NCBI RefSeq assembly: GCF_036588685.1
Contig: NW_026963298.1
Location: 434,001-498,000, forward strand
DNA: 64,000 nt
From: Mytilus trossulus
Taxonomy: Eukaryota
Direction of reading: 5' to 3'
Under the pieces are notes generated by a model that had not been told where the DNA came from, made no database searches, and saw nothing but the letters and a program-made list of their open reading frames with translations. The translations under genes and the position numbers were made by a program. Positions 1 through 64,000 of the stretch are shown one piece after another (position 1 is the first letter of the stretch; the number at the start of each line of letters is the position of its first letter).

Positions 1-759
1 TGATAATAATAGGAGTAACTTGAACAAAAATCTGCTCTGTAACATATACTATAAATAGGGACATAAGATGTTACGAAATATGATAACTTCATTTTTTAAA
101 AGTGTCTCATAAAAATTAACATGACAGGAAACACTAATTTAACCGAATTGACTTGGTGCAATAAAGAAATGAAACAGAGACAACATAAACTGAGTTCATC
201 TTTTTTGGTAGAAGAGTTCAACAAATACAATTAATCAGATGAAATATAGATACGATTATGTTGTCAGGTCATTAAATATTGCATATTTTGGATAACATAT
301 TGATTCACTTGATATTTCTATTGTAAATAGACCAGTAGTGGGCATGATAATAAGGGTTATGTCCTTCTTATAAAATGTATAATAATATGATTCTTAACGC
401 TTAACGGTAAAATGTGTGATTGACTTAGATATAACGAAGACATACTTTTCAATCAGTTTAAATCTGACCACTGCTAGAAGTCCTTTGTATTGTTCAAGTT
501 GATCATTTTTAATTTGCTAAGTTTCTGCTGTAACCTATTCTTATATCAGACGAAAACATTTTAAACTAAGTTTTACTGGGAGGAGTTATGGCCCTTGAAC
601 CAAGGTGATTAGTGTTTCATAGCTCCGCAAAAAAGTGAATTTCTGAAAGATTGCAGCTAATAGTACGGTATGAATTGTTGAAAACTGTATGCAATACATG
701 TTTACATTCCTTTTGAGACTAAAACATTCAAAAACGGACAAATAGTTTAGTATTTATCG

Positions 760-2043: not shown

Positions 2044-2126
2044 TTTAATATCTGTTATTAAATCAAAATACAAAATATAAGACTATAGAAATCTTTTATT
2101 TTAAATTATAAAAAAAACTAAAAAAA

Positions 2127-8287: not shown

Positions 8288-8699
8288 TTAAGTCTGCCAA
8301 TTGATATTTTAACGTGCGTTTTTCTATGTTGTGATGTTATGCTATTGTTTCAGAAAGAGGGAGAAGGTTTGGATCCATTAAAACGTTTAATCCCGCTGCA
8401 AATGTTTGCACCTGTCCTAAGTCAGGAATCTGATGTACAGTAGTTGTCGTTTTTTTATGTAATAAATACGTGTTTCTCGTTTCTCGCTTTTTTTATAAAT
8501 ATAGATTAGACCGTTGGTTTTCCCGTTTGAATGGTTTTACACTATTAATTTTGGGGCCCTTTATAGCTTGTTGTTCGATTTGAGGCAAGGCTCCGTGTTG
8601 AAGGCCGTACATTGATCTATAATGGTTTACCTTATTATAAATTGTAATTGGGAGGGAGAGTTGTCTCATTGGCACTCACACCACATCTTCCTATATCTA
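8288..8699 (+). mobile_element. 5'-truncated interspersed repeat (probable Penelope-like element 3' tail, family A)
   Basis: Highly similar to 23367-23771 with the same 3' end (cacatcttcctatatcta); homologous blocks to the PLE tail at 23772-24057. Confidence 0.75.
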
Positions 8700-8761
8700 G
8701 ACACATAGAAAACGTCATGTTGCTTATTGACGCCGGTATTGATCTCAATATACAGGATCAG
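8700..8761 (+). pseudogene. Disrupted ankyrin exon A (3' two-thirds remain)
   Basis: HIENVMLLIDAGIDLNIQDQ then GTCAGT donor; directly preceded by a repeat insertion (8288-8699); no intact acceptor. Confidence 0.75.
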
Positions 8762-11700: not shown

Positions 11701-14700
11701 TTACAATTATAACATATGGTGTAGCATTCTCCTGTTTTCATTTGCTATTACGATCACGTGTTTCAAAGTTTATTTTGTGTATCCGAAGCCTTGGTTATAT
11801 TTTTAGCTTTATTGCCGCAATGATTATATGTATGATTCTTTAGTGGTGATTAAAAAAATAAAGTAGTAAATTAAGATTTATGACGTCATGGTGTCGCACA
11901 AACCAACCACGGAGGAAGCGCCACACCAGACGAAGTTAATCAGAAGGAGATATCACGAATGTTTCGTCAAAATACAGACACTGTAAAAGCAAGGAATCTA
12001 ACGCAATAAGATGTGATCCAAAGCTATTCAAAGAATATCGATATTAAAAAAAACGTGTAAAAAATGCTGCAAAATACAATTTGAAAATAAACAGAAGGAT
12101 ATTTAATGTCATTTACCTAATATATATATTTTTTTGTATTATATAAGTTAATGACTTTCACTCAGTCAATACGTTATATATGGACCTGTTAAATTATATT
12201 GCCACTTGAACTTCTTTCTCGGTAAATATAATCTGAAAAGGTTCATATAACGTATTGACCTCGTCATCAGTCTACTATAAGTGATTAAACAAATTATTTT
12301 AAGTTCAAGCCTATATTCTTTTTAAAGTGAATTTGTGATGCTTCGAATCATATAAAAACAAACATGCAGATTGAAAAAGTATTGATATCAAATTGAAAAC
12401 TGATAATGTTTGTTATACACTTAGTGAAAACCTGAGTTGTTACAATATCATTTTAGTTGCCTAATTTATCATTCAATGTGATGCTTATATTTTTTTGTTC
12501 TATTCAGAAGGGAAGAACTGCATTTAACCTTGCTGCATCATACGGTACAACAGAAACTATAAAGACGCTGATCGATGCTGGAATTGATGTCAACTTACTT
12601 GAAAAGGTCAGTGCTTCATTAATCAATTATAACACTTATCAGTCATGTATCCATGTCTGTTATATCAATGTTCTTAAAATGATATAAACATTTTGCTAGA
12701 CATCACTTGAAGGTGTAACCCATCATAGAAATGGAATATTTACATTTGGGAACGCATGTCTTATGTCGTAAACTTTGGTTTTCAAAATGTTTCATGGTTT
12801 ATTCTTAAAAGTAAGTCATCATATGAGACAGACTTGAACATATATGAGTTATACATAAAAATATGTACAGCAAATGTTTGTTATACATCATGCCTGAACT
12901 ATTTTATTGACAAGATATTTTACCAGATAGTCCACCAACAGAGGTATCGAGTCAGTAATATCAGCATGCTCTGAATGGCATGCCTCACAAGTGTTCTTCT
13001 CTCTTTCATCTTTACTGAATGAACTACAATATAGTTCATATGTTTTACAAATACGAATACCACTACAAGCGGATTTTAGTTGCAATTGAAACACGTTGCT
13101 GTCTTAGTCTTTTTTTGAAGAGTTTATAAAAATCTCATTAGGGGAAGCAAAGTAAATAGACAATATAATTATCAGCCGAAAACAGTAACATCATAGTACA
13201 CTACCATAACACTTCTAATAAGATGTGTGACTTTGCGATACAGATATATAATTCCCATAGGGTGATTTGTATGTCTTCAATTAATAAATATGTACTGCGT
13301 TTATATCAAGGATGGCTCGAGTGCACTACACAATGCTGCAAGTAAAGGAAGTGCAGGAATTGTTGATTTGCTTATTAACAATGGAATTGAGATCAATCTT
13401 CAGAAAAAGGTAAGTTGTACAATAGAAATAAAACAGGCGAACTCCTGATCTAACACCACAATGTGACTATGTCAATGGCAAACATTAAAGAGTGCAGGTC
13501 AATGCAAACCAATCGTTTACTTTATTTACATATGTTCTGATAAATAGAAGCATTACAAATTGTTGTATAATTCATAGAAGCATAACTTGTTGTTGTCTGA
13601 AACATAGAAGTATTACAAATTGGTGAATAATACATGGAAGCATTACTAGTTGTTGTCTGATGCATAGAAACATTACAAATTGTTTTTCTGGTACATATCC
13701 ACAGCGGATTTTAGTTGCAATTGAAACACGTTGCTGTCTTAGTCTTTTTTTGAAGAGTTTATAAAAATCTCATTAGGGGAAGGAAAGTAAATAGACAATA
13801 TAATTATCAGCCGAAAACAGTAACATCATAGTACACTACCATAACACTTCTAATTAGATATGTGACTTTGCGATACAGCTATATAATTCCCTTAGGGTGA
13901 TTTGTGTGTCTTCAATTGATAAATATGTACTGCGTTTATATCAAGGATGGCTCGAGTGCACTACACAATGCTGCAAGTAAAGGAAGTGCAGGAATTGTTA
14001 ACTTGCTTATTAACAATGGGATTGAGATCAATCTTCAGAAGAAGGTAAGTTGTACAATAGAAATAAAACAGGCGAACTCCTGATCTAACACCACAATGTG
14101 ACTATGTCAATGGCAAACATTAAAGAGTGCAGGTCAATGCAAACCAATCGTTTACTTTATTTACATATGTTATGATAAATAGACGCATTACAAATTGTTG
14201 TTTAATTCATAGAAGCATAACTTGTTGTTGTCTGAAACATAGAAGTATTACAAATTGGTGCATAATACATGGAAGCATTACTAGTTGTTGTCTGATGCAT
14301 AGAAACATTACAAATTATTTTTCTGGTACATATAAGCATAAAAATTTGTCGTCGGATACATTAAATCATTAAAAATTGTTGTCTGATACATAGAAGCATT
14401 ACAAAGTGTTGTCTGTTACATAGAAGCATTACAAAGTGTTGTCTGATACATAAAATCATTAAAAATTGTTGTCTGATACATAGAAGCATTACAAAGTGTT
14501 GTCTGATACAAAGAAGCATTACAAAGTGTTGTCTGATACATAAAATCATTAAAAATTGTTGTTTGATACATAGAAGCATAACAAAGTGTTGTCTGATACA
14601 TAGAAGCATTACAAAGTGTTGTCTGATACATAGAAGCATTGCAAAGTGTTGTCTGATACATAGAATCATAACAAAGTGTTGTATGATACATAGAAGCATA

Positions 14701-17700
14701 ACAAAGTGTTGTCTGATACATAGAAGCATTGCAAAGTGTTATATGATACATAGAGGCATTACAAAGTGTTGCCTGATACATAGAAGCATAACAAAGTGTT
14801 GTCTGATACATAGAAGCATTACAAAGTGTTGTCTGATACATAGAAGCATAACAAAGTGTTGTCTGATACATAGAAGCATTACAAAGTGTTGTCTGATACA
14901 TAGAAGCATTACAAAGTGTTGTCTGATACATAGAAGCATAACAAAGTGTTGTCTGATACATAGAAGCATTACAAAGTGTTGTCTGATACAGAGAAGCATT
15001 TCAAAGTGTTGTCTGATACATAGAAGCATTACAAAGTGTTGTCTGATACATATAAGCATTACAAAGTGTTGTCTGATACATAGAAGCATTACAAAGTGTT
15101 GTCTGATACATAGAAGCATTACAAAGTGTTGTCTGATACATAGAGGAATAACAAATTGATGTTTGATACATAGAAGCACTACACATTGGTGGCTCATACA
15201 TAGAAGCATTACAAATTGTTTTCTGATATGTCATGGTTTCTCTTCTTTTTGTAATTTTGTACATTTCAATTTATTTCGAGATCCATGTCTTAATATCAGT
15301 GAATATGTGAGTTAGGCAAAGTAAGTTTACCTTATGCTTCTCTTGCGTTGGGCTACACAATTTGTCAAATATGTCGGCAATGAAGAAGAATTACAAAATA
15401 TATTAAATTGTAACTTAACGATCTACATTACCAAAAAAGTATTCAATAAGATATTTTAACATCCAATTCGATTTTACTACAAGGCTGTCGTACACAATTA
15501 TAAAGGACAAAGCACAGAAAGAAAATATAACGCAAGGGACAACAAAAAAGTAAATGGACAATATAAGTATCAGTCAAAAGCAGTAACATCATAGTACACT
15601 ACCCTAACACTTCTAATGAGATGTGTGACTTTGCAATACAGCTATATACTTCCCATAGGCTGATTTGTATGTCTTCAATTAATAAATATGTACTGCGTTT
15701 ATATCAAGGATGGCTCGAGTGCACTACACACTGCTGCAAGTACAGGAAGTGCAGGAATTGTACATTTGCTTATTAACAATGGAATTGAGATCAATGTTCA
15801 GACGAAGGTAAGTTGCATATTAGAAATAGAACAGGCAAATTACTAATCTAACACCAGAATGTGACTATTTCAATGGCAAACATTAAAGAGTGTAGGTCAA
15901 TGCAAACCAATCGTTTGCTTTATTTCCATATATCAATACACATTGTTGTCTGATACATAGAAGCGTTACAAATTGTTGTTTGATACTAAGAAGCATTACA
16001 AACTTTTATATGATATATAGAAGCATTACCAATTGTTTTCTGATTCATATAATCATTACAAACTGTAGTCTGATATATACCAACATTACAAATTGATGCC
16101 TGATAAATAGAAGCATCACAAGTTGATGTCTCATACATAGAGGCATTACAAACTGTTGTCTGATACATAGAAGCATTACACATTGTTTTCTTGTACATAT
16201 AAACATTACGAATTGTTGTCTGATACATAGAAGAAATACAAATTGTTTTATTATACATATAATCATTACAAACTGTTGTCTGATACATAGCAACATTACA
16301 AATTGATGCCTGATACATAGAAGCAATACAGACCGTTGTCTGATACATAGAAGTATCACAAATTATTATCTGATCCATAGAAGGAAAACTATTTTTTTTC
16401 TGGTACATAGAAGCATTAAAAATTGATGTATTATACATAGAAGCACTGCACATTGGTGGCTCATACATAGAAGCATTACAAATTGTTTTCTGATATGTCA
16501 TGGTTTCTCTTCATTTTTGTCATTTTGTACATTTCAATTTATTTCGAGACCCATGTCTTAATATCAGTTAATATGTGTGTTAATCAAAATGAGTTTTCCT
16601 TATGATTCTCTTGCGTTTGGCTACACAATTTTTCAAATATGTCGGTAATAAGAAGCAGTACAAAATATATTAAATTGTATCCTTACGATCTACATTAACA
16701 AAAAAGTATTCTATATAATATTTTAACATCCAATTCGATTTTACTACAAGGCTGTCGTACACAATTATAAAGGACAAAGCAAAGAAAGAAAATATAATGC
16801 TAGGGACAACAAAAAAGTAAATGGACAATATAAGTATCAGTCAAAAGCAGTAACATCATAATACACTACCCTAACACTTCTAATGAGATGTGTGACTTTG
16901 CAATACAGCTATATACTTCCCATAGGCTGATTTGTATGTCTTCAATTAATAAATATGTACTGCGTTTATATCAAGGATGGCTCGAGTGCACTACACACTG
17001 CTGCAAGTGAAGGAAGTGCAGAAATAGTTAATTTGCTTATTAACAATGGAATTGAGATCAATGTTCAGAAGAAGGTAAGTTGCACATTAGAAATAGAACA
17101 GACAAATTACTGATCTAACACAAGAATGTGACTATTTCAATGGCAAACATTAAAGAGTGTAGGTCAATGCAAACCAATCGTTTGCTTTTTTTCCATATAT
17201 CAATACAAATTGTTGTCTGCTACATAGAAGCGTTACTAATTGTTGTTTGATACTAAGAATCATTACAAACTCTTGTAATGCGGCGTAAAGCAACCAACAA
17301 TCAATCAATCAATCAAACTCTTGTATGATATATAGAAGCATTACCAATTGTTTTCTGATACAAAGAAGCATTACAAATTATTGTCTGATACATAGAAGAA
17401 ATACAAATTGTTTTCTGATACATAGAATCATTACAAACTGTTGTCTGATACATAACAAGATTACAGATTGATGTCTGATACATAGAAGCATCACAAGTTG
17501 ATGTCTCATACATAGAGGCATTACAAACTGTTTCCTGATGCATAGAAGCATTACAAATTGTCGTCTGATACTTAGAAGCATTACAAATTGGTGTCTGATA
17601 CATAGAAGCATTACAAACAGATGTCTGATACATAGAAGCGTTACAAATTGTTTTCTTGTACATATAAACATTACGAATTGTTGTCTGGTACATGGAAGCA

Positions 17701-20700
17701 TTACAAATTGATGTCTTGTACATAGAAGCATAACAAATTGATGTTTGATACATAGAAGCACTACAATTTGGTGACTGATACATAGCAGCATTACAAACTG
17801 TTTCATGGTACATAGAAGCATTACAAATTGTTTTCTGATACATAGAAGCACTACAAATTGTTTTTTTGTACATATAAGCATTATAAATTGTTGTCTGATA
17901 CATAGACACATTACATCTTATTATCTGATACCTAGAAGCACTAAACATTGGTGCCATATATACATAGAAGCATTACAAGTTTATTTCTGATACATAGAAT
18001 CATTACAAACTGTTATCCAATACATAGACACTTTACAAATTGTGGTCTGATACTTAGAAGCCTCACAAATTGTTGTCTGATACATAGAGGCATTTCAAAT
18101 TGCTGTCTGATACATAGAAGCATTAGAAATTGCTGTCTGATACATAGAAGCTTCACAAATTGTTTTCTGGTACATAGAAGCTTCACAAATTGATGTAAAA
18201 TACATAGAAGCATTACAAACTGTTATCTTATACATAGAAGCATCACAAATTGTTGTCAAATGTATAGAGGCATTACAAATTGTTGTCTGATACATAGAAG
18301 CATTACAAAGTGTTGTCTGATACATAGACGCATTACAAACAGATGTCTGATACATAGAAGCATTACAAAGTGTTGTCTGATACATAAAAGCATTACAAAC
18401 AGATGTTTGATACATAGAAGCATTACAAATAGATGTCTGATACATAGAAGCATTACAAAGTGTTGTTTGATACATAGAAGCATTACAAAGTGTTATCTGA
18501 TACATAGAAGCATTACTAACAGCTGTCTGATACATAGAAGCATTACAAAGTGTTGTCTGTTACATAGAAGCATTACTAACAGATGTATGATGCATAGAAG
18601 CATTACAAAGTGTTGTCTGATACATAGAAGCATTACAAAGTGTTGTCTGATACATAGAAGCATTACACATTGATGTCTGATATGTCATGTTTTCTCTTAT
18701 TTATGGTTATAACACATATGATAGCAGCATAGTACGTTTTGACATGTAAATTAAATGTTTATGTAACAAACTAACAAACTAAAATATTATGTATGTATAA
18801 TAGTTTTTTTATTGTCATTTTGTACATTTCAATTTATTTTGAGATTCATGTTTTTATATCAGTGAAAATGTGTGTTAGTCAATCTGAGTTTCTGAATTTT
18901 AATGCGCGTATTGTTATGCGTTTACTTTTCTACATTGGCTAAAGGTAAAGGGGGAGTGTTGAGATCTCACAAACATGTTTAACCTCGCCGCGTTTTTGCG
19001 CCTGTCCCAAGTCAGGAGTCTCTGGCCTTTGTTAGTCTTGTATTATTTTAATGTTAGTTTCTTGTGTCAATTTGAAAATTAGTATGGCGTTCATTATCAC
19101 TGAACTAGTAAATATTTGTTTAGGGGCCATCTGAAGGACGCCTCAGGGTGCTTGAATTTCTCTCTACATTGAAGACCTGTTGGTGACCTTCTGCTGTTGT
19201 TTTTTTTTCTATGGTTGGGTTGTTGTCACTTTTACACATTCCAATTTCCATTCTGAATTTTATTGCTTTATACTTTTCGTGCGTTTGGCAACGCAACTTG
19301 TCAAATATACCGGCAATGAAGAGGAAGTACAAAATATATCAAATTGTAACCTAACGATCTTCGTTATTATAATTAGTGTTCTATATAATATTTTAGCATC
19401 CAATTCGATTTTACAACAGGCTGTCACACACAGTTATATAAAACAGAGCAGAGAAAGACAATAAATAAAATGCAAGGGAAAACAAACTTTACAAAATTAT
19501 TTACTTTATAAACCACAATTTGGTGTATATGTCTTACAACAACGAAGTCAACACTATAAACTGTTTTGAGCCTAAATGGAAACACACGGCAGTGTTATTC
19601 AAATTACCATGAATAATCATTCTTCCGTACGATCTCATAAAATATATATTTAATGGACAATATACACGAAACAATCATCAGTAGAAAAACATTATATTGA
19701 ACACATTAGTACACTACCATAACACAGGATGTGTTACTTTGCTGATCATCTATATACATCCCAACGTCTGAATTTTTTTTATATGTGTTACACTGTTATA
19801 TCGTAACTCTGTTTCTTCCAAGGATGGTTCCACTGCACTACACAATGCTGCAAGTACAGGAAATACAGAAATTGTCCAATTGCTTATTGATAATGAAATC
19901 GAGATCAATTTTCAAAACAAGGTAAGTTATACATAAAAACACAAGTGAGAAACTAAATAAAATGATAATGTGGATATTGTACATGGCAAACAGTGCACAA
20001 AATGTAGACTGCACGGGAATATAAACTGAGCGTTTGCTTAATTCATGAACGTTATGAAAAATAGTAGCATGAACTATTGTATTCCTATATTGATGTCACT
20101 TTTTTCATTTGATTTGCCTTAAACTAACCACTAATTCGTTTCTTGTTGCTTACATTTAATAGCCAACATAGGATATTTGATGTTTTCAAAATATTTCAAG
20201 CAATTGAGAGAGGTTAACTGAGCCTTTTCGGTAATAACAGTATTTTAAGTCCGATGTAGCAAAATAAGTTGATTATTTTATTGAAAATACACATTTCAAG
20301 CCTTTGTCACTCAAAAATGTAGCACACATGTCGGCTATAGTAGAGGGAATACATGACCAAACAGTGTGTTAACTACAAAAAGCATGAAACAATATATTAT
20401 CCTATAATATTTCTACATTCACTATAATATGTCAAATCTGTTTAGGTCTGTCCCGAAAAAAACTATCTTCTAGGTTTTAAAACAAAGATAAAAGATAATA
20501 TAGCAATTGAGCGTTTCAATTAAAACAGAACAGAAAATGCACACACAAAACCGTTGAAAGGACAAAGTTTGTCAACATAACACACGATGTAAAATTAATA
20601 TCATAACAAACAAAAAATTAAAAAAAAAATCAACAAGAACATTACATGATCTGTAATGATAAAAAGGTACTGCGTCAAATGTGACTTCCTTTAGGATGTT

Positions 20701-23700
20701 GATGCAAATGAAAAGCCGTTCAACTTTGAACAGTTGGAGACTGATTTTTCCTTATGATCCGTGAAACTTCCCGTAGTCATTTAAGCCACAGATATGACAT
20801 ACGGTTCACTAAGGATGGAGTCCGTTACACGTTTGAAAATATTTCTTTTGCTTACTTAGTAATCCTTAATATATATTCATGTAATATATATTAATGTAAA
20901 TGCTTCCTTGTAAGCAGTAACATAATATAAACGAGATAGATAAAGTACACAAAAGCACAGGACTACAGTATTACCTGGATTACCTTAGATGTATATATCT
21001 GTGCTGCTGGACTGTTACTATTTATAGCGTTTACAGTTGTGAAGCTTAAATTACGCTTTTTGTCGTAGTATTTTCTCACGAAATCGTCAGTGTCAATGAT
21101 TCCACGTTGTTATAACATTTTGATTCAAATAACAATCTCTATGAATATCTTGCTAGTCGAAGGCCGCCCCTTTTGTTTTTGCGTCCTATATTTGGTTCAA
21201 ATTTAGCTTTCACATTAATTTTCATTTATGGCCTGCATTGGTGAATAATATCTACGCCAATAATAACATATTTGACGGAAAAAAGTTACAACTAACTTCC
21301 GTCGACTTAAAAGTTTGTATCTGGACTTAATTTTAGAGAAAAAGTATAAAATTTTCCGAACTTATTTATATAATGCATGATATATTTAATTAATGATAAA
21401 TTAGATAGGTAATAAGTAAAAACAGCAACATGGTTAGATAGACTTGATGATGAAAATACCACTAAAATTAACGATATCTACATCAGAACTGTATACTTTA
21501 AAATAATGAAAGCACATACTTAAATGTTAAGGATAGTCAGATAAATCATACAAACATTATTGTGATGTAAGTTTTAACAATGAATACTCGTGGAGACCAT
21601 TACAATGTTTGTATGTTGATGACAATTGAACAGTGTCATTACGAAAATGAACATACACTTGATGGAAAAAAAATATGATAACTTTGTGTAAACAAAAAAG
21701 AGGACTACAATACCAAGTTATTTCAATCTTCTTGATATTCCTTATTCATACATCTAACATCAATATTTAATAACTGCAATGTATTTCAGGATGGTTCGAC
21801 TATACTATTTGACGCTATATTAAAAGGAAAGACAGACATTGTGCACTGGCTTATTGACAAGGGAATTGATATTAATGTACAGGACAAGGTGAGCTATAAA
21901 TTCGATATAAACTAATAAACACGACAGTAGTGATTGGTCTAATATGGAGCTTGTGTGTATCAAATATTGTAAACTAGACAATCAATTACAAACATTCAAA
22001 TACGATTTCATATTTAGATTGCTTGTTTGGTGATTTTTTCATATGGCAATGTTGATAAGTTAGATTACGTCAATTATGCTTTAGTAGCAATAAACCAAAA
22101 AACTATGTTAATTGGACATGTTTTGATACTATATATGCCCTTGAATTTTTACTAGATAACATTTTTGTTTCTGTTTGGGGATTCCGTATATCGTCAGATT
22201 ATCGGAATTCCAATGGGGACGAACTGTGCACCACTTATTGCGGACCTCTTTTTGTATTGTTATGAGTTACAATTTATGACAAAAATAAGCAAAGACCCAT
22301 CAAAACAACATCTGATAAACAAATTTAATAATACTTTTAGATATTTGGATGATATTTTGGCTCTCAATAATGACGACTTCAGTGTGTATATTAATGAAAT
22401 GAATCCTGGTAAACTTACTTTAAATAAAGCTAATACTAACAATGACCACTGCCCTTTCCTCGATCTTGATATCTATATCACTAACGGAAAGCTGAATACT
22501 AAAATTTATGATAAAAGGGATGATTTTTCATTTCCTATCGTTAATTATCCGTTTTTAGATGGTGACGTTCCCTTGTCACCATCTTACGGTGTTTACATAT
22601 CTCAACTTGTACGATTCGCTCGTGTATGTAACAATGTTTTAGATTTTAACGAGAGAAATTTATGTATTACTGAAAAATTATTACACCAGGGTTTTCGATA
22701 TCACAAACTAGTCAAAACATTTACTAAATTTTATCATCGGTATAAAGACATCATTCGTAAATATAGCTCAACATGCAGACTTCTTATACGTTCAGGTATT
22801 TCACGTCTATTTTTTTATGGAAATATTCTTTATAAAGCACAAAGGTGTCAGTATTCACCTCAAAAACTTACAAAACCGTTGAATAGACTTATTAAGAAGG
22901 GATATAATTACGATACTGTTGTCAAGTCATTAAAGATTGCATATTTTGGCGTAAATATTGAGTCACTGATAAGGTATTTGCGTCGGAACTAAACACATTT
23001 ATTTAAAAAACAGTTGTTGGCATGACACGGGTTATGTTCTTCTCATATATGTTATGATACTAAACCCCTTACGGGAAGGATTGTGCCTGATGTTCATCTT
23101 TCAGTCAGTTTAATTGAAGTCTGGAGCTGGCATGTCAGTTAACTGCTAGTAGTCTGTTGTTATTTATGTATTATTGTCATTTTGTTTATTTTCTTTGGTT
23201 ACATCTTCTGACATCAGACTCGGACTTCTCTTGAACTGAATTTTAATGTGCGTATTGTTATGCTTTTACTTTTCTACATTTGTTAGAGGTATAGGGGGAG
23301 GGTTGAGATCTCACAAACATGTCAAATTTATTCGTTCATTGTGTAATCATACGTTTTTTGATTGAGTTAAGTCTGCCAATTGATATTTTATCGTATGTTT
23401 TTATATGTTGTGATGTTATGCTATTGTTTCAGAAAAAGGGAGAAGGTTTGGGCCCATTAAAACGTTTAATCCCGCTGCAAATGTTTGCACCTGTCCTAAG
23501 TCAGGAATCTGATGTACAGTAGTTGTCGTTTGTTTATGTAATATATTCGTGTTTCTCGTTTCTCGTTTTGTTTATATAGATTAGACCGTTGGTTTTCCCG
23601 TTTGAATGGTTTTACACTAGTAATTTTGGGGCCCTTTATAGCTTGTTGTTCGGTGTGAGCCAAGGCTCCGTGTTGAAGGCCGTACTTTAACCTATAATGG

Positions 23701-26700
23701 TTTAATTTTTTAATTGTTATTTTGATGGAGAGTTGTCTCATTGGCACTCACACCACATCTTCCTATATCTATTAACCCCGCCGCATTTTTTGCGCCTGAC
23801 CCAAGTCAGGAGCCTCTGGCCTTTGTTAGTCTTGTATTATTTAAATTTAGTTTCTTGTGTACAATTTGGAAATTAGTATGGCGTTCATTATCACTGAACT
23901 AGTATATATTTGTTTAGGGGCCAGCTGAAGGACGACTCCGGGTGCGGGAATTTCTCGCTACATTAAAGACCTGTTGGTGACCTTCCGCTGTTGTTTTTTT
24001 TATTTGGTCGGGTTATTGTCTCTTTGACACATTCCCCATTTCCATTCTCAATTTTATTTAATTTCTTTTTACATTTTCTTGTTTTCCAAATATGGGACAT
24101 TTGATTTCTACATTGTAATTCTTTATTCATCATTATTTAAAAGGGGTGACATAATTGGATCGAATAAGGAATGAATAAGGAAAAAACATACAAAAACGGA
24201 TAGTTCACAAATATGCATAAAGGAAGAAGTTGCAAACATAAGCGTCTCCGGTGATTCTCATGTAGATGAAACGCGCGTCTGGCGTACTAAATTATAATCT
24301 TGGTACCTTTGATATATTTGAAACAAATAAGGAAAAAAAATGAATAAGCAATAAGGAACAATTTGTAACGAATAAGGAAAAAGTGACAATTATGTAACGA
24401 ATAAGGAATAAATTACAATTATGTAACGAATAAGGAATAAGGAATAAGTAACAACTTGTAACAAATAAGCAATAAGGAACAATTATGTAACGAATAAGGA
24501 ATAAATGATAATTATGTAACGAATAAGGAATAAATGACGATTATCTAACGAATAAAGTATAGGAAACAATGATGTAACGACTAAAGAATGAGTAACATTT
24601 TTTTAACGAATAAGGAATGAGTGAACATAATTTAACGAAAAAGGAATACGTAACAATTATGTAAGGAATAAGAATATATAACAATTATGTAACGAATAAG
24701 GAATACGTAACAATCATGTAACAAATACGGAATAAGTTACAATTATTTAACGGATAAGGGATAAGTAACAAGTATGTAACGAATAAGGAATAAGTTACAA
24801 TAATGTAACGAATAAGAAATAAGTAACAATTATTTAACGAATAAGGAATAAGTAACAATTATGTAACGAATAAGGAATATGTAACAATTATGTAACGAAT
24901 AAGCAATACGTAACAATTATTTAGAGAATAAGAAATAAATAACAATTATTTAAAGAATAAGAAATAAGTAACAATTATTTCAACGAATAAGAAATAAGTC
25001 ACAATTATGTAACGAATACGAAATATGTAACAATTATGTAACGAATTAGAAATAAGTAACAATTATATAAAGAATAAGGAATAAGTAACAAGTATGTAAC
25101 GAATAAGGAATAAGTAACAATTATTTAACGAATAAGGAATAAGTAACAATTATGTATAAAATATCGAATAAGTAATAACAAATTGAATGTTTACATTTAG
25201 GAACTCATGTCTTGTGTCGTAAACTTTGGTTTTTAACATGTTTCATGGTTTATTCTGAAATATAAGTCATAATATGAGACAGACTTGCACATATATGAGT
25301 TATACATGAAAATATGTACAGCAAATGTGTGTTATAAATCATGCATGAACTATCTTATTGACAAGATATTATACCAGCTAGTCCACAAACAGAGGTATCG
25401 AGTCAGTGACATCAGCTTGCTCTAAATGGCATGCCTCACAAGTGTTCTTCGCTCTTTCATCTTTACTAAATGAACTACAATATAGTCTAACAATTCCTAA
25501 TACCACTACAAGCGGATTTTAGTTGGAATTGAAACACGTTGCTGTCTTTGTCTCGTTTTGTAGAATTTAAAAAAAAAATATAGACGAAAGAGAAGGAAAT
25601 GGACAATATATATAAGTATCAGTCAAAAACAATAACATCATAGTACACTACCATAACACTTCTAATGTGATGTGTAACTTTGTGGTACAGCTACATGTAT
25701 ATACTTCCTTTAGGCTGATTGTTATGACTTCAATTGATATATAATGTACTGCGTTTATATCAAGGATGGTTCGAGTGCACTACAGATTGCTGCAAGTAAA
25801 GGGAGTGCAGAAATTGTTAGTTTACTTATTGACAATGGAATTGAGATCAATTTTCAGAAGAAGGTAACTTAAACATTAGAAATATAACAGACGAACTACT
25901 AATCTAACACCAGAATGTGACCATTTAAATGGCCTTCAATGAGAGCCGTGGTGTAGTGGTTAGTGCATCGGACTACTAACACAAAGGTTCCTGGTTCGAT
26001 TCCCGTTTGGGATGAAAATTTCAGGAACTCAATTTTCGGCTCTCCCTTGACACCATTTGCGAGTATGGTCTTGAGGAAACGATGATAGTCCGTCGAAAGG
26101 GGACGATAAATGGCTGACCCGTGTTATGAGAGAGCCATATCTCTTGCATGTTAAAGACCCCCTTGTAGATATCGAAAAAGAGTAGGCTAATGCCGCTACA
26201 AGGCAGCACTCGCACCCGCAAAGTGGAAAGGGATTAATATAAGTTGCAAAACTTGTTTCCCAATCCACTCTAAATAGATATGTTTAAACTAAATGGCAAA
26301 CATTAAAGAGTGCAGGTCAATCAAACCACGCGTTTTTTTTTTATTTACATATCTGATGATAAAAAGAAGCATTACAAATTGGTGTATTTTACATAAAAAC
26401 ATTACAAACTGACGCCTGATACATAGAAGCATTACGAATTGTTGTCTATCAAACTGAAAACTTATTTCACATATACTAAAAACCTCTTTTTCATCAGTAG
26501 TGAGAAAAGGTTTGCAATATTTTTTATTTGTAATATTTAATGAGCAATTTATTATTTTGTATACACATAATGCTGCTTTTGCTGCACACAATATGTGCCT
26601 GGATGTATTAATAAACTTGTATTTGTCTGATACATAGAAGCATAACAATTTTTTGTCTGATACATAGAAGCATTAGAAATTGCTTTCTGATACATACAAG

Positions 26701-29700
26701 CTTCATAAATTGTTCTTCAATTGTTAGAAGCATAACAAATTGGTGTCTGACACATAGAAGCATAAGACATTGTTGTCTGATACATAAAAGCATAACAAAT
26801 TGTTGTCCGATACAAAGATGCTTATCATATTCTTGCCTGATACATAAAAGCATTATTAATTGTTATTTAATATACTGAGAAGCATTAAAAGTTGTTTTCT
26901 GGTACATAGAGGCATTACACGTTCTTGTCTGATACATAGAAACAGTCAAGTGATGTCTGATACAGAAAAGCAGTATAAAGTATTTGTTGATACAAAGAAG
27001 CATTACAAATTGGTGTCTGATATATATAAGCATTATCCATTGTTGTCTGATACATAGAGGAGTTACAAATTGTCGTCTGATACATAGAAGCATTACAAGT
27101 TGTTTTCTGGTATATAGAAGCATGACCAATTGATGATTGATAAATAGAAGCATTACAAAGTGTTGTCTGATACATAAACGCTAAAAAAAATGTTGTCTGG
27201 TACATATATGCATTACAAATTGTTGTCTGATACATAAAAGCATAACAAAAAAAATTATGGTACATATAAACATTAGAAATTGTTGTCTGATATTTAAACA
27301 CATTACCTTTTTTGGTTGATAAATTGATGTCTGGAACATAGAAGCATTATACATTGATTTCTGACACATAAAAGCATTAAAAATAATTAGCTGATACAAT
27401 AAAGCATTACAAATTAATGTCTGATGCATAGAAGCATTACACATTGTTCTCTGGTTCAATAAAGCATTACACATGGTTATCTGGTTCATAAAAGCATTAC
27501 AAATGGTTGTCTGATACGTAAAAGCATTACAACTGATGTCTGATACACAGAGGCATTCTAAATTGTTGTCTGATACATATAAGCATTACAAATTATTGTC
27601 ATAGAGGCATTACAAATTGCTGTCTGATGCATAGAAGCTATAAAAATTGTTGTCTAATACATAGAAGCATTACAATTTTGTTATGGTACATAGCAGCATG
27701 ACAGTTTGTTGTCTGATACACAGACTAATTACAAATTGTTGTCTTATATATACATAGAAGCATTATAATTTTTTTCTGGTACATATAAGGATTATAAATT
27801 GTAGTCTTATATATCATGTTTTCTCTTCTTTAGGGTAAGACAAAATATAATAGCTGCATAATATAATTTGATATGTAAATTAGATATTTATGTGACAAAC
27901 TAAGAAAATAAAATATTGTGTATGTATAATATTTTTTTTTTGTTATTTTGTACATTTCAATTTATTTTGAGATCCATGTCTTAATATCAGTAGAAATGTG
28001 TGTTAGTCAATGTGAGTTTGCTTTATGCTTATCGTGCGTTTGGCAACACAATTTGTCAAATACGTCGGCAATGCAGAGGATGTACAAAATATATCAAAGT
28101 TTAACCTAACAATCTACGTTAACAAACATAGTATCGTACATTTTATTTTAACATCCAATTCGATTTTTCTACAAGGCTGTCACACACAGTTATATAGAAC
28201 AAAGCAGAGAAAGAAAATAAAATTCAAGGGACAACAAACTTTACAAAATGATTTACTTTATGAACCACAATTACGTGTATATGTCTTACAACAACGAATA
28301 CAACACTATAAACTGTTTTAGGCCTAAATGGAAACACATGGCAGTGTAAGTCAAATTAGCATGAATAATCAATCTTTCCAGACGATCTCATAAAATATAT
28401 ATTTAATGGACAATATACACGAAACAATCATCAGCAGAAAAACATATATTGAACACATTAGTACACTACCATAACACTTCTAACAGGATGTGTGACTTTG
28501 CTGGACATCTAAATACATCACGGAGTCTGATTTGTTTTTATGTGTTACACTGTTATATCGTCACAATGTTTCTATCAAGGATGGTTCCACTGCACTTCAC
28601 AGTGCTGCAAGTACAGGAAATACAGAAATTGTTCAATTGCTTATTGATAATGAAATCGAAATCAACTTTCAGAACAAGGTAAGTTATACATAAAAAAAAA
28701 ACAAGTGAAAAACTATAAAAAATGATTATGTGAATATTTTCCGTGGCAAACAGTGCACAAAATGTAGACTGCACATTAATATAAACCGAGCGCTTGCTTA
28801 ATTCATTAATGTTATGAACTATTGTAGTCATGTATGAATGTCACTTTATTTTTAGTTTGATTTGCCTTAATCTAACCACTAATTCGTTTCTTTTTCGAAA
28901 AAAAATAAATATAAAAAGGGTTATGCAATATGGTTGTTAACACTCAACAGCCAACATAGGATAGTTGATGTTTTCAAAATAGTACAAGCAATTGAGAGAG
29001 GTTAACTAAGCCTTTTTGGTAGAAACAGTATTTTAAAATCCATGTTGCAAAAAAGTTGATTATTTTTTTGTCAGTACACATTTCAAGACATTGTCACTTA
29101 AAAATAAAGTACAAATGTCAGCCATAGTAGAGGGAAAACATGACAAAACATTTTGTTAACTACAAAAAGTATGAAACAATATATCATCCTATAATATTTC
29201 TACTTTGACTATAATATGTCAAATCTGTTTAGGTCTGTCCCGAAAAAAAATATCTTCTAGGTTTTAAAACAAAGATAAAAGATAATATAGCAATTGAGCG
29301 TTTCAATTAAAACAGAACAGAAAATGCACACACAAAACCGTTGAAAGGACAAAGTTTGTCAACATAACACACGATGTAAAATTAATATCATAACAAACAA
29401 AAAATTAAGACACGCTACCATTCCTATTAAAACAGAAAATACACACAAAATGGCTGTAGAAAGGACAAAGTGTTTCAACATATCAAACGATAGATAGAGT
29501 ACACAAAATCACAAGACTAGAGTATTACCTGGATTACCTGGGAGGTATATATCTGTGCTGCTGGACTGTTGCTATTTATAACTCTACGTTTACAGTTGTG
29601 AAGCTTAAATCACGCTTTTTGTCGTAGTATTTTCTCAAGAAATAGTCAGTGTCAATGATTGCACGTAGTTAACATTTTGATTCAAATAACAATCTCTATC

Positions 29701-32700
29701 AATATCTTGTTAGTCGAAGCCCGCCCATTTTATTTTTGCGTCCTATATTTGGTTCAAATTTAGCTTTCACATTAATTTTCATTTATGGCCTGCATTGGTG
29801 AATAATATCTACGCCAATAATAACATATTTGACGGAAAAAAGTTACAACTAACTTCCGTCGACTTAAAAGTTTGTATCTGGACTCAATTTTAGAGGCAAA
29901 GTATAAAATTTACCGAATTTATTTATATAATGCATGATATATGTAATTAGACTAGAGTATTACCTGGATTACATGGGAGGTATAGATCTGTGCTGCTGGA
30001 CTGTTGCTATTTATAACTCTACGTTTACAGTTGTGAAGCTTAAATCACGCTTTTTGTCGTAGTATTTTCTCAAGAAATAGTCAGTGTCAATGATTGCACG
30101 TAGTTAACATTTTGATTCAAATAACAATCTCTATCAATATCTTGTTAGTCGAAGCCCGCCCATTTTATTTTTGCGTCCTATATTTGGTTCAAATTTAGCT
30201 TTCACATTAATTTTCATTTATGGCCTGCATTGGTGAATAATATCTACGCCAATAATAACATATTTGACGGAAAAAAGTTACAACTAACTTCCGTCGACTT
30301 AAAAGTTTGTATCTGGACTCAATTTTAGAGGCAAAGTATAAAATTTACCGAATTTATTTATATAATGCATGATATATGTAATTAGACTAGAGTATTACCT
30401 GGATTACCTGGGAGGTATAGATCTGTGCTGCTGGACTGTTGCTATTTATAACTCTACGTTTACAGTTGTGAAGCTTAAATCACGCTTTTTGTCGTAGTAT
30501 TTTCTCAAGAAATAGTCAGTGTCAATGATTGCACGTAGTTAACATTTTGATTCAAATAACAATCTCTATCAATATATTGTTAGTCGAAGCCCGCCCATTT
30601 TATTTTTGCGTCCTATATTTGGTTCAAATTTAGCTTTCACATTAATTTTCATTTATGGCCTGCATTGGTGAATAATATCTACGCCAATAATAACATATTT
30701 GACGGAAAAAAGTTACAACTAACTTCCGTCGACTTAAAAGTTTGTATCTGGACTCAATTTTAGAGGCAAAGTATAAAATTTACCGAATTTATTTATATAA
30801 TGCATGATATATGTAATTAATGATAAATTAGATAGGTAATACGTAAACACAGCAACATGGTTAGATATACTTGATGATGAAAATACCACTAAAATTAACG
30901 ATATCTACATCAGAACTGTATACTTTAAAATAATGAAAGCACATACTTAAATGTTAAGGATAGTCAGATAAATCATACGAACATTATCGTTAAGTAAGTT
31001 TTAACAATGAATAATCGTGAAGACCATTAAAATGTTTGTATGTTGATGACAAATGAACAGTGCCATTACGAACATGAACATACACTTGATGGAAAAAGAA
31101 ACTTTATGATAACTTTGTGTAAACAAAAAAGAGGACTACAATACCAAGTTATTTCAATCTTCTTGATATTCCTTATTGATAAATCTAACATCAATATTTA
31201 ATAACTGCAATGTCTTTCAGGATGGTTCAACAATACTGTTTGACGCTATAGTAAAAGGAAACACAGACATTGTCCACTGGGTTATTGACAAGGGAATTGA
31301 TATTAATGTACAAGACGAGGTAAGCTATAAATTGGATATAAACTGATAAACATGACAGTGGTGATTGGTCTAATATGAAGCTTGTGTGTGTCAAATATTG
31401 TAAACTGCACAATCAATTACAAACATTCAAATACGCTTTCATATTTAGATTGCTCTTTTGGGGATTTTTTCATATGGCAATTTTAATAAGTTAGATAACG
31501 TCAATTATGTTTTAAATCTTTTTACATTTTCTTGTTTTCAAAATATGAGACGTTTGATTTTTACATTGTAATTCTTTATTCATCATTATTTAAAAGGGGT
31601 AACAAATTAAGATCGAATAAGGAAAAACATACAAAAACGGATAGGTCACAAATATGCATAAAGGAAGAAGTTGCGAACATGAGCGTTTCTGATGATTCTT
31701 ATGTAGACGAAACATCGAAACGCGCGTCTGGTGTACTCAAAATTAATCCTGGTACCTTTAATAAATATGCAACAAATAAGGACAAAAACTGAGAATTGAA
31801 ATGGGGAATGTGTCAAAAAGACAACAACCCGACCATAGAAAAGACAACAGCAGAAGGTCACCTACAGGTGTTCAATGTACCGAGATTAATTTCCGCACAC
31901 GATAGCGTCCTTCGGCTGGCCTCTAAAGAAATATATACTAGTTCATTGATAATGAACGCCATACTTAACTCTTAATTGCACAAAAGAAACTAAAAGAAAC
32001 AAGGAATAAATAACGAGTATGTAACAAATAACGAATAAGCAATAAGGAATAATTATGTAACGAATAAGGAATAAATGACGATTATCTAACAAATAAGGTA
32101 TAAGTAACAAGTATATAACGAATGAGGTATAAATAACAATTATATAACGAATAAGAAATAAGTAACAATTATGTTACGAATATGAAATCAGTAATAATTA
32201 TATTACACATAAGGAATAAGATATTTTTTTTATAACGAATACGGAAAAAGTAACAATTATGTAACGAATAAGGAATAAGTAACAATTATGTTACGAATAA
32301 GGAATAAGTAACAATTATTTAACGAATGAGGAATAAGTAACAATTATATAACGAATAAGGAATAAGTAACAAGTATGGAACGATAAAGTATTAAGTAACA
32401 ATTTTATAACGAACAATGAATAAGTAACAAATATGTAACGAATAAGGAATAAGTAAAAATTATGTTACGAATAAGGAATAAGCAACAATCATATAACGAA
32501 TAAGGAATAAGTTACAATTATGTAACGAACAATGAATAAGTAACAAATATGTAACGAATAAGGAATAAGTAAAAATTATGTTACGAATAAGGAATAAGCA
32601 ACAATCATATAAAGAATAAGGAATAAGTTACAATTATGTAACGAATAAGGAATATGTAACAATTATGTAACAAATAAGGAATAAGTTATAAGAAACAATT

Positions 32701-35700
32701 ATATAACGAAAAACGAATAAGTAACAATTATGTAACGAATAAGGATTAAGTAACAATTATGTAACGAATGAGGAATAAGTAACAATTATGAAACAATAAT
32801 ATATATTTTTGATAATTCAAACGCAGAATTTGTATAGTCATATAAAAATGATGTAAAAATAATGACTCAGTAAAACAGGTATTGGTATTTGTATCCAACA
32901 GTCATTAAAGCGTTGAATTCGATCATCTCAAAACTATAATTAATATACCACTACCAGAACAAAATAAAAATATTCCACGAAACACATCAGTTTCCACTTC
33001 TCCATTTGAAGGATATTGATGAATATCTTTGACGCTTCATCAACCATATATTATATAGTTCTAACGTCAGGATACAGAGTACAAAGAAGTTCACAATTTA
33101 GAAGATGAAATCATGACTTTGTCAACTTTAAGTTTCTGATCTTACCATCGGTGTCATTTGATATTATTATTCTGTACGTTAAAATGCCATACTTAGAGCT
33201 GCTGATACAAGGGTGTTGTTTAAATGTAGCACATAGCAGAGCGGGTGACAATTTTGATGGTTGTTTCACTCTCGTCAAGGCAAATCACAAACGGACATTT
33301 CAAAGGAAAATGAATTGAATTTACAAAATCAAGGCTTATTTGAGTTCTATGTTTTCGATCAGATTGTCAAATAAAAAAAAATAAACCTTCTTGTTTCACC
33401 TTTTTTTCTAATAGTATTACTTGTAATATTGTTATGTGCGTGACATCATAGAAAATACTTTTAATATAAAATTGATCTGTAAAGGACAAGACTGATTGAA
33501 CATTCAATATAATAAATTAATAATACATAGCAGATTGGTACTCCCCGAAAAAAAACATTTTCAACAGCTATGTGTCATTTATATATGAAACGAACTTTTT
33601 CAGAGATATCAAAGGACACTCGTATATTATACCAAAAGGACAATAAAACCATCAGTTGAAAAATTCATATGATTTTCAATTCGAAATTACACAAGAATAA
33701 ATTTAAGAGATACTCTTCTTATGATGATCTGTGAAATTCAACGTTACGTCAGTTCTGTTATTATCCACTATTATTTACAATATCAGGAAATAACAATTAA
33801 ATATGAAGCATGGCTTCTGAATATGATAGTCTTCAATCATGGCATAATCCAATACAGTTGTGAAGACCTCTCAGATACGTCTAAAAATTAAATCATAGCG
33901 ATAAACAACAACATCATCAGTAATGGGTGAAAATACGACAATTATTCAACTACATGGAGAATATAACTGTTTAAAAATTACGTATGCATATGATTTTACT
34001 AAAACCTAAATATTCACTTTAATATCGTGTGTTCTTTTTATTAAGGATGGAAATACTGCGTTACATTTAGCTGTTGTAATCAACAACGATGTGCTAGCAA
34101 CTCTGTTATTAAACAGGGGTTGTAATTCAAACATACAAAATAAATATGTAAGTACCAGTACAAGAGTATTTGTGTTATTGTAAATCTAGTAAATGCTGTA
34201 ACTTATTATATAACAGTTCATTTTGTACTCAGGCATGCCATTTTTGTAATATAGAATTTGTTTTGTTTATTGACAAAAGAAACCATGACACAACATAGAA
34301 AACTAAGAATAAGCAACATGAATCTCACCAAACTGTTATCTTAGGTGCCCCGTACCGTAAGGTTAATCAGATCATACTCCCCAGTTGGCACCCATCGTGT
34401 TGCTCATGTCATATCAAATTAGGTAAATAGTCTGATTCGGTAGGTCACATTCATGAAAGGAAAGGGAATAGTAGTTACAATGTAAGGAACATATCCGATA
34501 TCATTTGTAAAACGATTATTCCATAACGGTCAACCAACTCGTTATGGCGTCCATTAACTTAACGAAGTGATGATTTCAACTTCACTATGTGGAACTCTTG
34601 GTTTAATAGCTTCTTTGTGAGCAGCAACCTCTATCATTGTCTATCAAGAAAATCATGATAGGAAATGCACGCACGGAAATATCTTATCAATTGTGAGATA
34701 TATACCCCGTATGCAGGTGCTGCTGGAATGTTGCTACTTAAAAAACGGAAAGTACACAATTGGAAAGATGAAATCATCTCTTTAGTCGTAAAATTTTGTT
34801 TTCAACCGGCCCACATTGTCAATTTCTAGATGTAAGTCAAGATATGAGGCAGGCTTGACTGTATCGGTCAATGTGATTAAGTAGCTTAAGTTAGCTGTAA
34901 CATGAATTTTAAAAATTATGTTCATCTCTTGGGTCTGATTTTGTCCACTCCAACAATGTTTGTATAATGTATTCCTTCATTTCACTGCCCTTTTGAATAA
35001 CTATTCCAGAAAAAAAAACATTTATAGAAGTTCCAGTTAATTCCAAGGAATTTCTTTTAATTGAAATGCTCTTCTTTCCAACTGGATTCTTGAACTATAT
35101 TATATAAAGACTACTACATAATTTTTCTCTTCATTCCTAGAATAAATAAAGAAACGTTACATACATTTATGTATAAAGAAAAACTATTTATATATTCAAA
35201 ATAATTTTTGGCATTTATGTACATACATTGAGACATTTAAGACACACTATTAAATATAAATGTTACTTTGAAGTAATAATACGTATGGCTAAAGCCAAAC
35301 TTGTCTAGACTAAGTGTCCTAATGAGTCACAGCTATGTGTTTAACAGGGGGCCAGGGGCGTAGCAACTTTTACTGCAGGCACATTCGCAGGCACATTCGC
35401 CTAACCAATTGTTTTTTAACACCTCATTGCCATACCAATTATTCTGATTATATGGCACAAACCCTTCTAAAAAGGACATTTCGCCGTATAGATATTTAAT
35501 ACTTTCCTTGCTACGCCTCTGATTAATCCCTTTTGAACTATGTGTCCAAGTAAGAAAGTTTTTAAAGAGTGAACTCCATTTCAGAGATACCTATTGCTTT
35601 TAAAAAAAATATCCAATTATCTATGTCTATGCTTACATTGTGTACTGTACATAACATACATTTTTTAATGTGCACCGTGTGGGGAAAAAGGACCCCCCTT

Positions 35701-63995: not shown

Positions 63996-64000
63996 TAAAA

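What the first reader, a model, noticed from the sequence alone, without database searches (positions are those of the whole stretch)
12735..32800. Nested duplications built the ankyrin array: a three-exon module duplicated, then its first exon quadrupled
Seen: intron sequence from ~12741 recurs at ~25192. The block [C-type exon, 30-bp satellite, G, H, 29-bp satellite] is repeated as [I, 30-bp satellite, J, K, 29-bp satellite]. Within the first block the C-type exon occurs four times (C-D spacing 635 bp, nearly identical; E-F spacing 1267 bp). All products keep the ORF and splice sites while the introns gathered indels and insertions. Inference: repeated rounds of expansion, with selection retaining the exons.
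Basis: seen in the sequence. Interest (0 to 1): 0.7.

Follow-up and report, generated by a model that had tools for sequence, protein, structure and literature searches.

The report
Shuffled ankyrin exons in mussel Roco
A mussel gene that encodes each ankyrin repeat on its own 99-base exon carries nested duplications of those exons, likely reshaped later by gene conversion; related genes show their own expansions and an apparent array swap, which likely diversifies a family of predicted intracellular immune or cell-death sensors, though this copy likely has a broken reading frame and no function has been tested.

Summary
The nested duplications are there at the stated coordinates. Public DNA contigs show about double depth and a break exactly at the C/D unit edge, so C/D is unlikely to be an assembly artefact. 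The array heads a Mytilus ankyrin–Roc–COR–death-domain gene without a kinase.

Three corrections. (1) The order is only half supported. Exons and flanks fit 'module first', but the spacer before E/F is as old as the module split (0 shared derived sites, about 6.7 expected), and a 1.35-kb tract looks converted. (2) Selection on the exons is measurable (18 synonymous, 19 non-synonymous changes, ω about 0.3), yet exon A is broken and this copy likely carries a real COR frameshift. (3) It is a family habit. Ten loci carry 1–15 such exons, and a neighbour joins one gene's array (97–99% alike) to this gene's Roc (99.6%). Changes cluster at ankyrin binding-face positions (weak positive-selection signal).

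Closest known: LRR-exon shuffling in brown-algal ROCO genes. The scan noted this family before on other DNA (e1-9858634). Immune function is inferred only.

The parts
8701..8761 (+). Exon A: 3' remnant of a duplicated ankyrin exon; 5' half and acceptor missing, a repeat element (8288-8699) abuts it
   Evidence: 88% identical to intact exon A0 just upstream of the window (G000:C23:433274), with homologous flanks; element 92% alike to 23367-23771
12508..12606 (+). Ankyrin exon B (99 bp, phase 0), outside the duplicated blocks
12729..25178 (+). Block 1: C, D, E, F, G, H with 30-bp and 29-bp satellites and later insertions
13068..14333 (+). C/D tandem duplication, 635-bp unit, 16 differences; junction inside the 30-bp satellite with 4 extra bases (13699-13702) that match sequence 4 bp upstream of the donor site
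   Evidence: run X1 contigs at depth 44-49 over shared parts versus 25 in the single-copy flank, contig break at 13068
13311..13409 (+). Ankyrin exon C
   Evidence: Pfam Ank above cut-off
13946..14044 (+). Ankyrin exon D
14173..15228 (+). 30-bp satellite, 35 copies; sister arrays at 13536-13690, 15937-16495, 17314-18682, 26623-27811
   Evidence: one exact 48-mer occurs 6 times in G000, all in this gene
15236..15546 (+). Spacer in front of E (copy in front of F at 16503-16813), derived from the intron that precedes G/J but as diverged from both as they are from each other
15709..15807 (+). Ankyrin exon E
16976..17074 (+). Ankyrin exon F
19823..19921 (+). Ankyrin exon G
20440..21790 (+). Tract only 4-5% diverged from its block-2 counterpart (11-14% elsewhere); likely gene conversion
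   Evidence: ratio to outgroup distance 0.24-0.29 versus 0.49-0.73
21790..21888 (+). Ankyrin exon H
24342..25175 (+). 29-bp satellite ending at the block junction; sister array at 32029-32799
   Evidence: short related stretches in paralogue P3
25180..32799 (+). Block 2: I, J, K with 30-bp and 29-bp satellites
25765..25863 (+). Ankyrin exon I (His of the TALH motif replaced by Gln)
28580..28678 (+). Ankyrin exon J
29514..30819 (+). Exon-free 435-bp unit in three tandem copies, 3 variable sites in all; shows that the duplication process also hits intron-only DNA
   Evidence: not tested against reads
31221..31319 (+). Ankyrin exon K
34046..34147 (+). Last (capping-type) ankyrin exon L, 102 bp; from about 33900 on, paralogue P2 is 96-99% alike
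37288..41406 (+). Roc GTPase exons (37288-37545, 39669-41027, 41300-41406); P-loop, G2, G3, G4-type motifs present; 84-bp coding repeat inside the insert. Two short linker exons precede (36719-36772, 37000-37021)
   Evidence: motif names recalled
41917..43162 (+). COR exon, 1,246 nt, with one base more than its paralogues in a T run at 42250-42255 (frameshift, stop about 40 bases later)
44381..44649 (+). Exon for a presumed first death-fold domain (not folded here)
   Evidence: position and RNA-type contig cover; no Pfam hit
46564..46874 (+). Last exon: death-fold domain
   Evidence: model pLDDT 92.7, six main helices; Foldseek top hits RAIDD, RIPK1, FADD death domains, TM 0.7-0.8, E 0.005-0.08

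Best explanation
This is the sensor-end array of a mussel ankyrin–Roc–COR–death-domain gene in which every repeat is one 99-base phase-0 exon, and the array was lengthened by several tandem duplications that were likely made by microhomology-type break repair or unequal crossover and likely partly overwritten by gene conversion, in a family that likely uses such changes to vary what its predicted receptors bind. Shown: the copies, junctions, uneven divergence, purifying selection on the exons, independent expansions in paralogues, and one paralogue whose array and Roc have different nearest relatives. Inferred: because any whole exon can be added or lost without a frameshift, the mutational process that also triplicated an exon-free 435-bp stretch changes repeat number at little cost. 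Most likely history: the three-exon module duplication and the first E-type unit arose at about the same time (12–16% divergence); the E exon and its flanks were later homogenised with C (8%); E/F split (5.5%); C/D split (2.4%). Inferred function: the ankyrin array binds a ligand, the Roc-COR switch and death domains pass the signal on. This particular copy is likely a recent null allele (COR frameshift).
For: Junctions carry 1–3-base overlaps or a 4-base templated-looking insert. Divergence ladder 0.5%, 2.4%, 5.5%, 8%, 12.5%. Spacer conflict and converted tract. 18 synonymous versus 19 non-synonymous changes, ω 0.29. Ten loci carry 1–15 ankyrin exons in the stretches fetched; P3 has 15, in multi-kb copies mostly 0.4–1.8% apart. 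P2's array is 97–99% identical to a locus on contig C13 whose Roc exon is 77% identical to the window's, while P2's own L and Roc exons are 96.7% and 99.6% identical to the window's. Across 57 distinct exons ω is 0.48, M7 v M8 P 0.001, M8a v M8 P 0.016; top sites 11, 12, 30, then 3 and 8. Sites 3, 8, 11 map to consensus positions 5, 10, 13, which form the binding surface in a designed ankyrin library (PMC4308713, passages). At least 40 close Roc paralogues in G000. COR and ankyrin domains are enriched among dispensable mussel genes (PMC7653742 Table S52). RNA-type contigs with 0–3 differences and GT..AG joints cover the 3' exons.
Against: No ligand, signalling or immune data. Positive selection is weak (M1a v M2a P 0.053) and recombination inflates such tests; the code was my own, on a fixed tree of 33-codon exons. 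Splicing of C–K into a transcript is not shown. The spacer tree is nearly a star (bootstrap 57; only 3 sites unite G and J), so 'about the same time' is as far as it goes; replacement of block 1's G–H part is an alternative. The P2 chimaera rests on one assembly. Only 0 of 297 exon bases versus 21 of 3,402 intron bases had indels between blocks, which is not significant alone (P 0.41). If the frameshift is old, the youngest duplications were unselected.
Confidence: 0.68

Rival explanations
1. One reading: one module duplication, then C copied three times in sequence, with no later exchange.
For: Exon and flank sequences of C, D, E, F group against I (10 shared derived sites); distances C/D < E/F < C/E < C/I.
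Against: The spacer inside the E/F units shares 0 derived sites with block 1 (6.7 expected, Poisson P 0.001) and is twice as diverged as the C/E flanks; block divergence is heterogeneous, P 6e-6.
Confidence: 0.12
2. Mutation-driven drift: the locus is duplication-prone and repeat number is effectively neutral; selection only removes broken exons, and this copy is decaying.
For: Exon-free 435-bp triplication and locus-specific satellites; broken exon A; LINE and other insertions; likely frameshift; P3 holds many exons with the same protein sequence, which adds length but little diversity.
Against: ω 0.29 in the window and a class with ω > 1 at binding-face sites family-wide; only one frame-breaking lesion seen in about 3.7 kb of 3' coding exons; near-identical alleles appear spliced in RNA-type runs.
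Confidence: 0.25
3. The near-identical copies (C/D) are assembly artefacts or two alleles laid in tandem.
For: C/D differ by 2.5%, near mussel heterozygosity (1.73% in PMC7653742, passages); the junction-spanning contig itself was not among those listed.
Against: In run X1 the shared parts have depth 44–49 against 25 for the flank, contigs break at 13068 (unit edge) and at 13681 (next to a C/D difference), and the junction has its own 4-base insert. One flank contig (12986–13097) has depth 40, which does not fit neatly.
Confidence: 0.05
4. Targeted or somatic exon rearrangement, as once proposed for Ectocarpus ROCO genes.
For: Same one-repeat-per-exon design and inter-locus exchange (PMC3341825, sections 15 and 24).
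Against: Junctions are unrelated to each other, carry no shared signal, and copies have aged by 0.5–16%; the E/F-type junction is also seen in a run labelled as another organism, as expected of germ-line events.
Confidence: 0.02

Closest known systems
Brown-algal ROCO LRR-GTPases with shuffled LRR exons (Ectocarpus; PMC3341825, abstract and sections 15, 24 part 1 read; PMC11378527, abstract and passages read)
   Same: Roc-COR protein; one repeat per exon in constant phase; clustered, fast-turnover family; recent paralogues alike except in the repeat domain; intra- and inter-locus recombination; broken repeat exons in introns; diversifying selection on repeats; immune role only proposed.
   Different: Animal; ankyrin (99 bp, phase 0) not LRR (72 bp, phase 2); C-terminal death fold; multi-exon modules duplicated with their introns; inverted exons rare (1 seen in 10 loci).
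Fungal NLRs with high-internal-conservation repeats (het-e/het-d type; PMC13449251, abstract and section 12; PMC5100051, passages)
   Same: Repeat sensor changes length and is homogenised by unequal crossover and conversion; repeats are exchanged between genes.
   Different: STAND ATPase rather than Roc GTPase; repeats there are C-terminal (recalled); here each repeat is an exon with kb-scale introns; fungal cases have tested functions.
Roco proteins LRRK2 / DAPK1 and Trichoplax Roco genes with death domains (PDB hits; PMC4104024, passages)
   Same: Roc and COR domains (Pfam on paralogues; profile hits LRRK2 Roc at E 3e-11); ankyrin, Roc-COR and death domain in the order recalled for DAPK1.
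   Different: No kinase in the window gene or in the 7 relatives scanned; long insert with a variable 28-residue repeat inside Roc; large lineage-specific family.
Mytilus predicted proteins annotated Roc/COR with or without ankyrin (P0001, P0003, P0057, P0061); 273 COR-domain genes in M. galloprovincialis (PMC7653742 Table S52)
   Same: Same family; 58–96% identity over most of the COR exon in most of 102 hits, all Mytilus.
   Different: Gene models miss most ankyrin exons (P0003 has 4 of the 15 found at P3; P0001 none of 11 at P2), so array dynamics are not visible in the annotation.

Membership tests
Roco proteins | Roc GTPase domain followed directly by COR | tested here: met
   Roc above cut-off in window exon (34.1 bits); COR-A 27.8 bits on the part after the frameshift (below cut-off 35.3), 36–46 bits in whole paralogues
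Roco proteins | GTP binding and hydrolysis | not testable with these tools
   P-loop and G3-type motifs present in the sequence; activity untested
DAPK / LRRK kinases | Protein kinase domain | tested here: not met
   No kinase family in 13 window segments or 7 full-length relatives
Death-domain proteins | Six-helix death fold | tested here: met
   Last exon: (top 17 listed rows are death-domain entries; none reaches E 0.001); Pfam gives no hit; first presumed domain not folded
Ectocarpus-type exon-shuffled ROCO receptors | One repeat per exon, constant phase | tested here: met
Ectocarpus-type exon-shuffled ROCO receptors | Repeats are type I LRRs | tested here: not met
   Repeats are ankyrin; so it works like, but is not, that family
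Ectocarpus-type exon-shuffled ROCO receptors | Intra- and inter-locus recombination in the repeat domain | tested here: met
   within gene; P2 joins a C13-type array to a window-type Roc; single assembly
Ectocarpus-type exon-shuffled ROCO receptors | Diversifying selection on exposed repeat residues | tested here: inconclusive
   P 0.001, 0.016 and 0.053 in three tests; recombination not modelled
Ectocarpus-type exon-shuffled ROCO receptors | Alternative splicing of repeat exons | not tested
   No RNA contig was laid on exons B–C; a blank is no evidence
Immune receptor | Ligand recognition leading to a defence or death response | not testable with these tools
   Inferred from domain make-up and evolution only

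The most novel reading that the evidence does not exclude
Mussels have an animal counterpart of the brown-algal shuffled ROCO repertoire: a large clustered family of kinase-less ankyrin–Roc–COR–death-domain receptors whose exon-per-repeat sensor arrays are expanded, converted and swapped between genes in the germ line, with selection on the binding face, giving new recognition specificities on a shared signalling base.
Probability: 0.4. Interest if true: 0.72.

Novelty: new variant of a known kind. Interest (0 to 1): 0.46.

Why it matters
The duplications alone are ordinary repeat-protein evolution. What lifts the case is the family. If arrays are really swapped and tuned, bivalves gain a concrete, testable source of receptor diversity without adaptive immunity, and Roco proteins gain a natural system in which to ask whether kinase-less Roc-COR acts as an immune switch. 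It also shows that gene models hide this: most ankyrin exons are missing from the annotated proteins.

Tried and rejected
RNA: no RNA holder was on record in the run search; two RNA-guess runs laid nothing on exons B–C. This is no evidence on expression. The second organism's run (X2, depth 3–5) has a contig that passes 13068 without a break, but is too shallow to show that C/D is absent. Pfam finds no death domain in window segments or 7 relatives; the fold search settled the last exon only. The protein atlas gave no result. The 358-bp insert in the I intron (8-bp target duplication) looked tRNA-derived by eye, but Rfam gave 0 matches. Indel contrast between exons and introns is not significant. 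Satellites as the drivers of duplication: 2 of 4 junctions lie in or at a satellite, about what 30% satellite content gives, and P3 expanded without the 30-bp satellite; rejected as necessary. My first idea that the window's own array was swapped: P3 shares its exon classes and Roc, so P2 is the likelier recombinant. Of 85 exon hits, 9 failed the AG + 99/102 nt + GT test; 5 have a clear lost splice site or lost half, 4 may only differ in length. The selection test dropped those 9, 10 capping-type exons and 9 identical duplicates (57 kept). Literature: searches found no paper describing ankyrin-exon shuffling in bivalve Roco genes; subscription journals are not covered, and only one paper's supplements were searched. 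A look-up by sequence in the scan's notes found nothing.
Full report
**Setting.** The window is G000:C23:434,001–498,000. Proteins from a record of the same length are labelled Mytilus trossulus, and all 102 COR-exon relatives found are Mytilus. The ankyrin exons belong to one + strand gene: A0 (just upstream of the window), a broken copy A, B, C–K, L, then Roc, COR and two helical C-terminal domains. The last domain folds as a death domain (pLDDT 92.7; best matches RAIDD, p84, RIPK1, FADD death domains, TM about 0.7–0.8, none at E < 0.001). No kinase was found.

**Observation.** Confirmed. Block 1 (12729–25178) and block 2 (25180–32799) are colinear. C/D is a 635-bp tandem unit with 16 differences. 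E/F are 1,267 bp apart. All nine exons keep frame and splice sites. The introns gained insertions (18892–19263, 22084–24057, 25934–26291) and a 435-bp triplication.

**Is C/D real?** Run X1 matches the window without a difference over 612, 1,428, 308 and 320 bases, so it is the same haplotype and possibly the source animal: a check of the assembly, not of the population. Its single-copy contigs have depth 22–25. Contigs over parts shared by C and D have 44, 49 and 47; the E/F flank has 48; the exon shared by four copies has 80. Contigs break at 13068, the first base of the duplicated unit, and at 13681, next to a C/D difference. One flank contig at depth 40 is unexplained, and the junction contig was not among the 16 of 44 pieces listed. 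A run labelled as another organism (X2) holds the C-type flank, the E/F-type junction and an F-like exon, so the E/F unit is likely older than that split or was introgressed.

**Order of events.** Substitution distances: 435-bp copies 0.5%, C/D 2.4%, E/F 5.5%, C/E 7.9%, C/I 12.5%. With a paralogue as outgroup, C–F share 10 derived sites against I across upstream flank, exon and downstream flank; 6 sites group I with some of them. But each E/F unit also carries a spacer taken from the intron before G. It is 16.7–17.1% from block 1's copy and 15.4–16.1% from block 2's, while those two differ by 12.7%. It shares 0 derived sites with block 1 where about 6.7 are expected, and 3 sites unite the two blocks against it. 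Block divergence is also uneven: 11–14% in most segments, 4–5% over about 20440–21790, and the drop persists after scaling to outgroups. The simplest reading is that the module duplication and the first E-type unit are of similar age and that conversion later homogenised E with C and part of G–H with J–K. Replacement of block 1's G–H part is an alternative I cannot exclude.

**Mechanism.** The junctions share no motif. C/D has a 4-base insert that matches donor sequence 4 bases upstream; E and the 435-bp unit have 1–3-base overlaps in A-rich sequence. This is what microhomology-type repair or template switching leaves (established knowledge; inference here). Unequal crossover between existing copies then extends arrays (PMC5100051, passages). 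The exon-free triplication shows the process is not aimed at exons. Phase-0 exons of 99 bases make any whole-exon gain or loss frame-neutral.

**Selection.** On the tree of nine exons there are 18 synonymous and 19 non-synonymous changes (my count), ω about 0.29, P 3e-4. Neutral simulation gives 0.006–0.04 for all nine staying intact. Synonymous change is about twice what intron distances predict (18 versus 8), which I cannot fully explain; converted flanks would do it. Against a simple picture: exon A lost its 5' half, and the COR exon has one base more than P2 and P3. In X1, contigs lacking that base sum to depth 232.5 of 255.7; the remainder, 23, equals single-copy depth, so the frameshift is likely real (inferred by subtraction). 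RNA-guess runs hold contigs with 0–3 differences and GT..AG joints over the 3' exons, so close alleles or paralogues appear to be spliced.

**Family.** The Roc exon has 150 scored matches in G000, 40 of them at E < 1e-30. In ten loci fetched (chosen by similarity, some arrays possibly incomplete) there are 1–15 ankyrin exons of the same design. P3 (C23:1.61–1.69 Mb) reads a G H a G H G G H G H G H a L, built from multi-kb copies mostly 0.4–1.8% apart: the same kind of nested module expansion, independent and younger. P2, 296 kb upstream, is 96.7–99.6% identical to the window from about 33900 (L, Roc) but 15–25% diverged over the array; about 7 kb of its array is 97–99% identical to a locus on C13 whose Roc exon is 77% identical to the window's. 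That is an array swap between genes, if the assembly is right. Over 57 distinct exons ω is 0.48; a class with ω 1.6–2 is favoured in two of three tests; top sites are 11, 12 and 30, then 3 and 8. Sites 3, 8 and 11 are consensus positions 5, 10 and 13 of the binding surface (PMC4308713); 12 and 30 are next to such positions. Recombination can fake this signal.

**Comparison.** It works like the LRR-exon shuffling of Ectocarpus ROCO genes (PMC3341825; PMC11378527), down to recent paralogues that differ mainly in the repeat domain, and like repeat exchange in fungal NLRs (PMC13449251). It is not a member of either: ankyrin exons, an animal, a death fold. The mussel COR expansion is in print as a table row (273 genes, enriched among dispensable genes; PMC7653742 Table S52). 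Six searches found no description of the exon dynamics. Papers seen: PMC3341825 abstract and sections 15 and 24 (part 1); PMC13449251 abstract and section 12; PMC11378527 abstract and passages; passages only for PMC9334734, PMC4104024, PMC8229355, PMC4308713, PMC7653742 (plus two supplement rows), PMC5100051, PMC10514466.

**Verdict.** Real, mostly as described, with a more mosaic history than the title says, in a copy that is likely a null allele. As a single locus it is ordinary. As a window on a shuffled receptor-like family it is a new variant of a known kind. Interest 0.46.

Noticed in passing
G000:C23:160129-170369 (L022-L023) versus G000:C13:60975141-60983972: Paralogue P2 appears chimaeric: array 97-99% like a C13 gene, L/Roc 97-99.6% like the window gene; breakpoint between 169,217 and 170,369.
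   Followed up: partly
window 39935-40446: 84-bp (28-residue) coding repeat inside the Roc insert: 6.1 copies here, 11.1 in P2, about 1 in P3. A second length-variable part of the protein.
   Followed up: partly
window 42250-42255: One extra base in a T run of the COR exon relative to P2 and P3; likely real by depth subtraction in run X1.
   Followed up: yes
window 751-7013: LINE-type retrotransposon in the A0-A intron: zinc-knuckle ORF1, endonuclease, reverse transcriptase, zf-RVT; ORF2 is split over three frames.
   Followed up: partly
window 22084-23322 and 45590-46333: Reverse-transcriptase-like fragments in introns (Penelope-like by recalled motifs; no Pfam hit); the first has two 95%-alike copies near P2.
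   Followed up: no
window 25934-26291: 358-bp insertion with an 8-bp target-site duplication just after exon I; SINE-like by eye, no Rfam match.
   Followed up: partly
window 43159+ versus P2: Similarity to P2 drops from 93-99% to about 80% over 43.2-45.4 kb and returns to about 91% at the last exon: further conversion boundaries in the death-domain part.
   Followed up: no
window 50660-55050: Neighbouring gene with a Sushi exon and C-type lectin exons; a 44-bp satellite lies in its intron. One M. galloprovincialis model (P0005) joins a C-type lectin to this Roco family, likely a merged annotation.
   Followed up: partly
G000:C23:128069 and 128390-150973: In P2 the C-type exon has lost its GT donor and is followed by 20.6 kb of a 550-bp repeat (37 copies).
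   Followed up: no
window 59544-64000 and 56154-56597: 60-bp satellite (74 copies, runs off the window) and 53-bp array (8 copies).
   Followed up: no
exons C-K: Synonymous changes are about twice the number expected from flanking intron divergence (18 versus 8); unexplained.
   Followed up: partly
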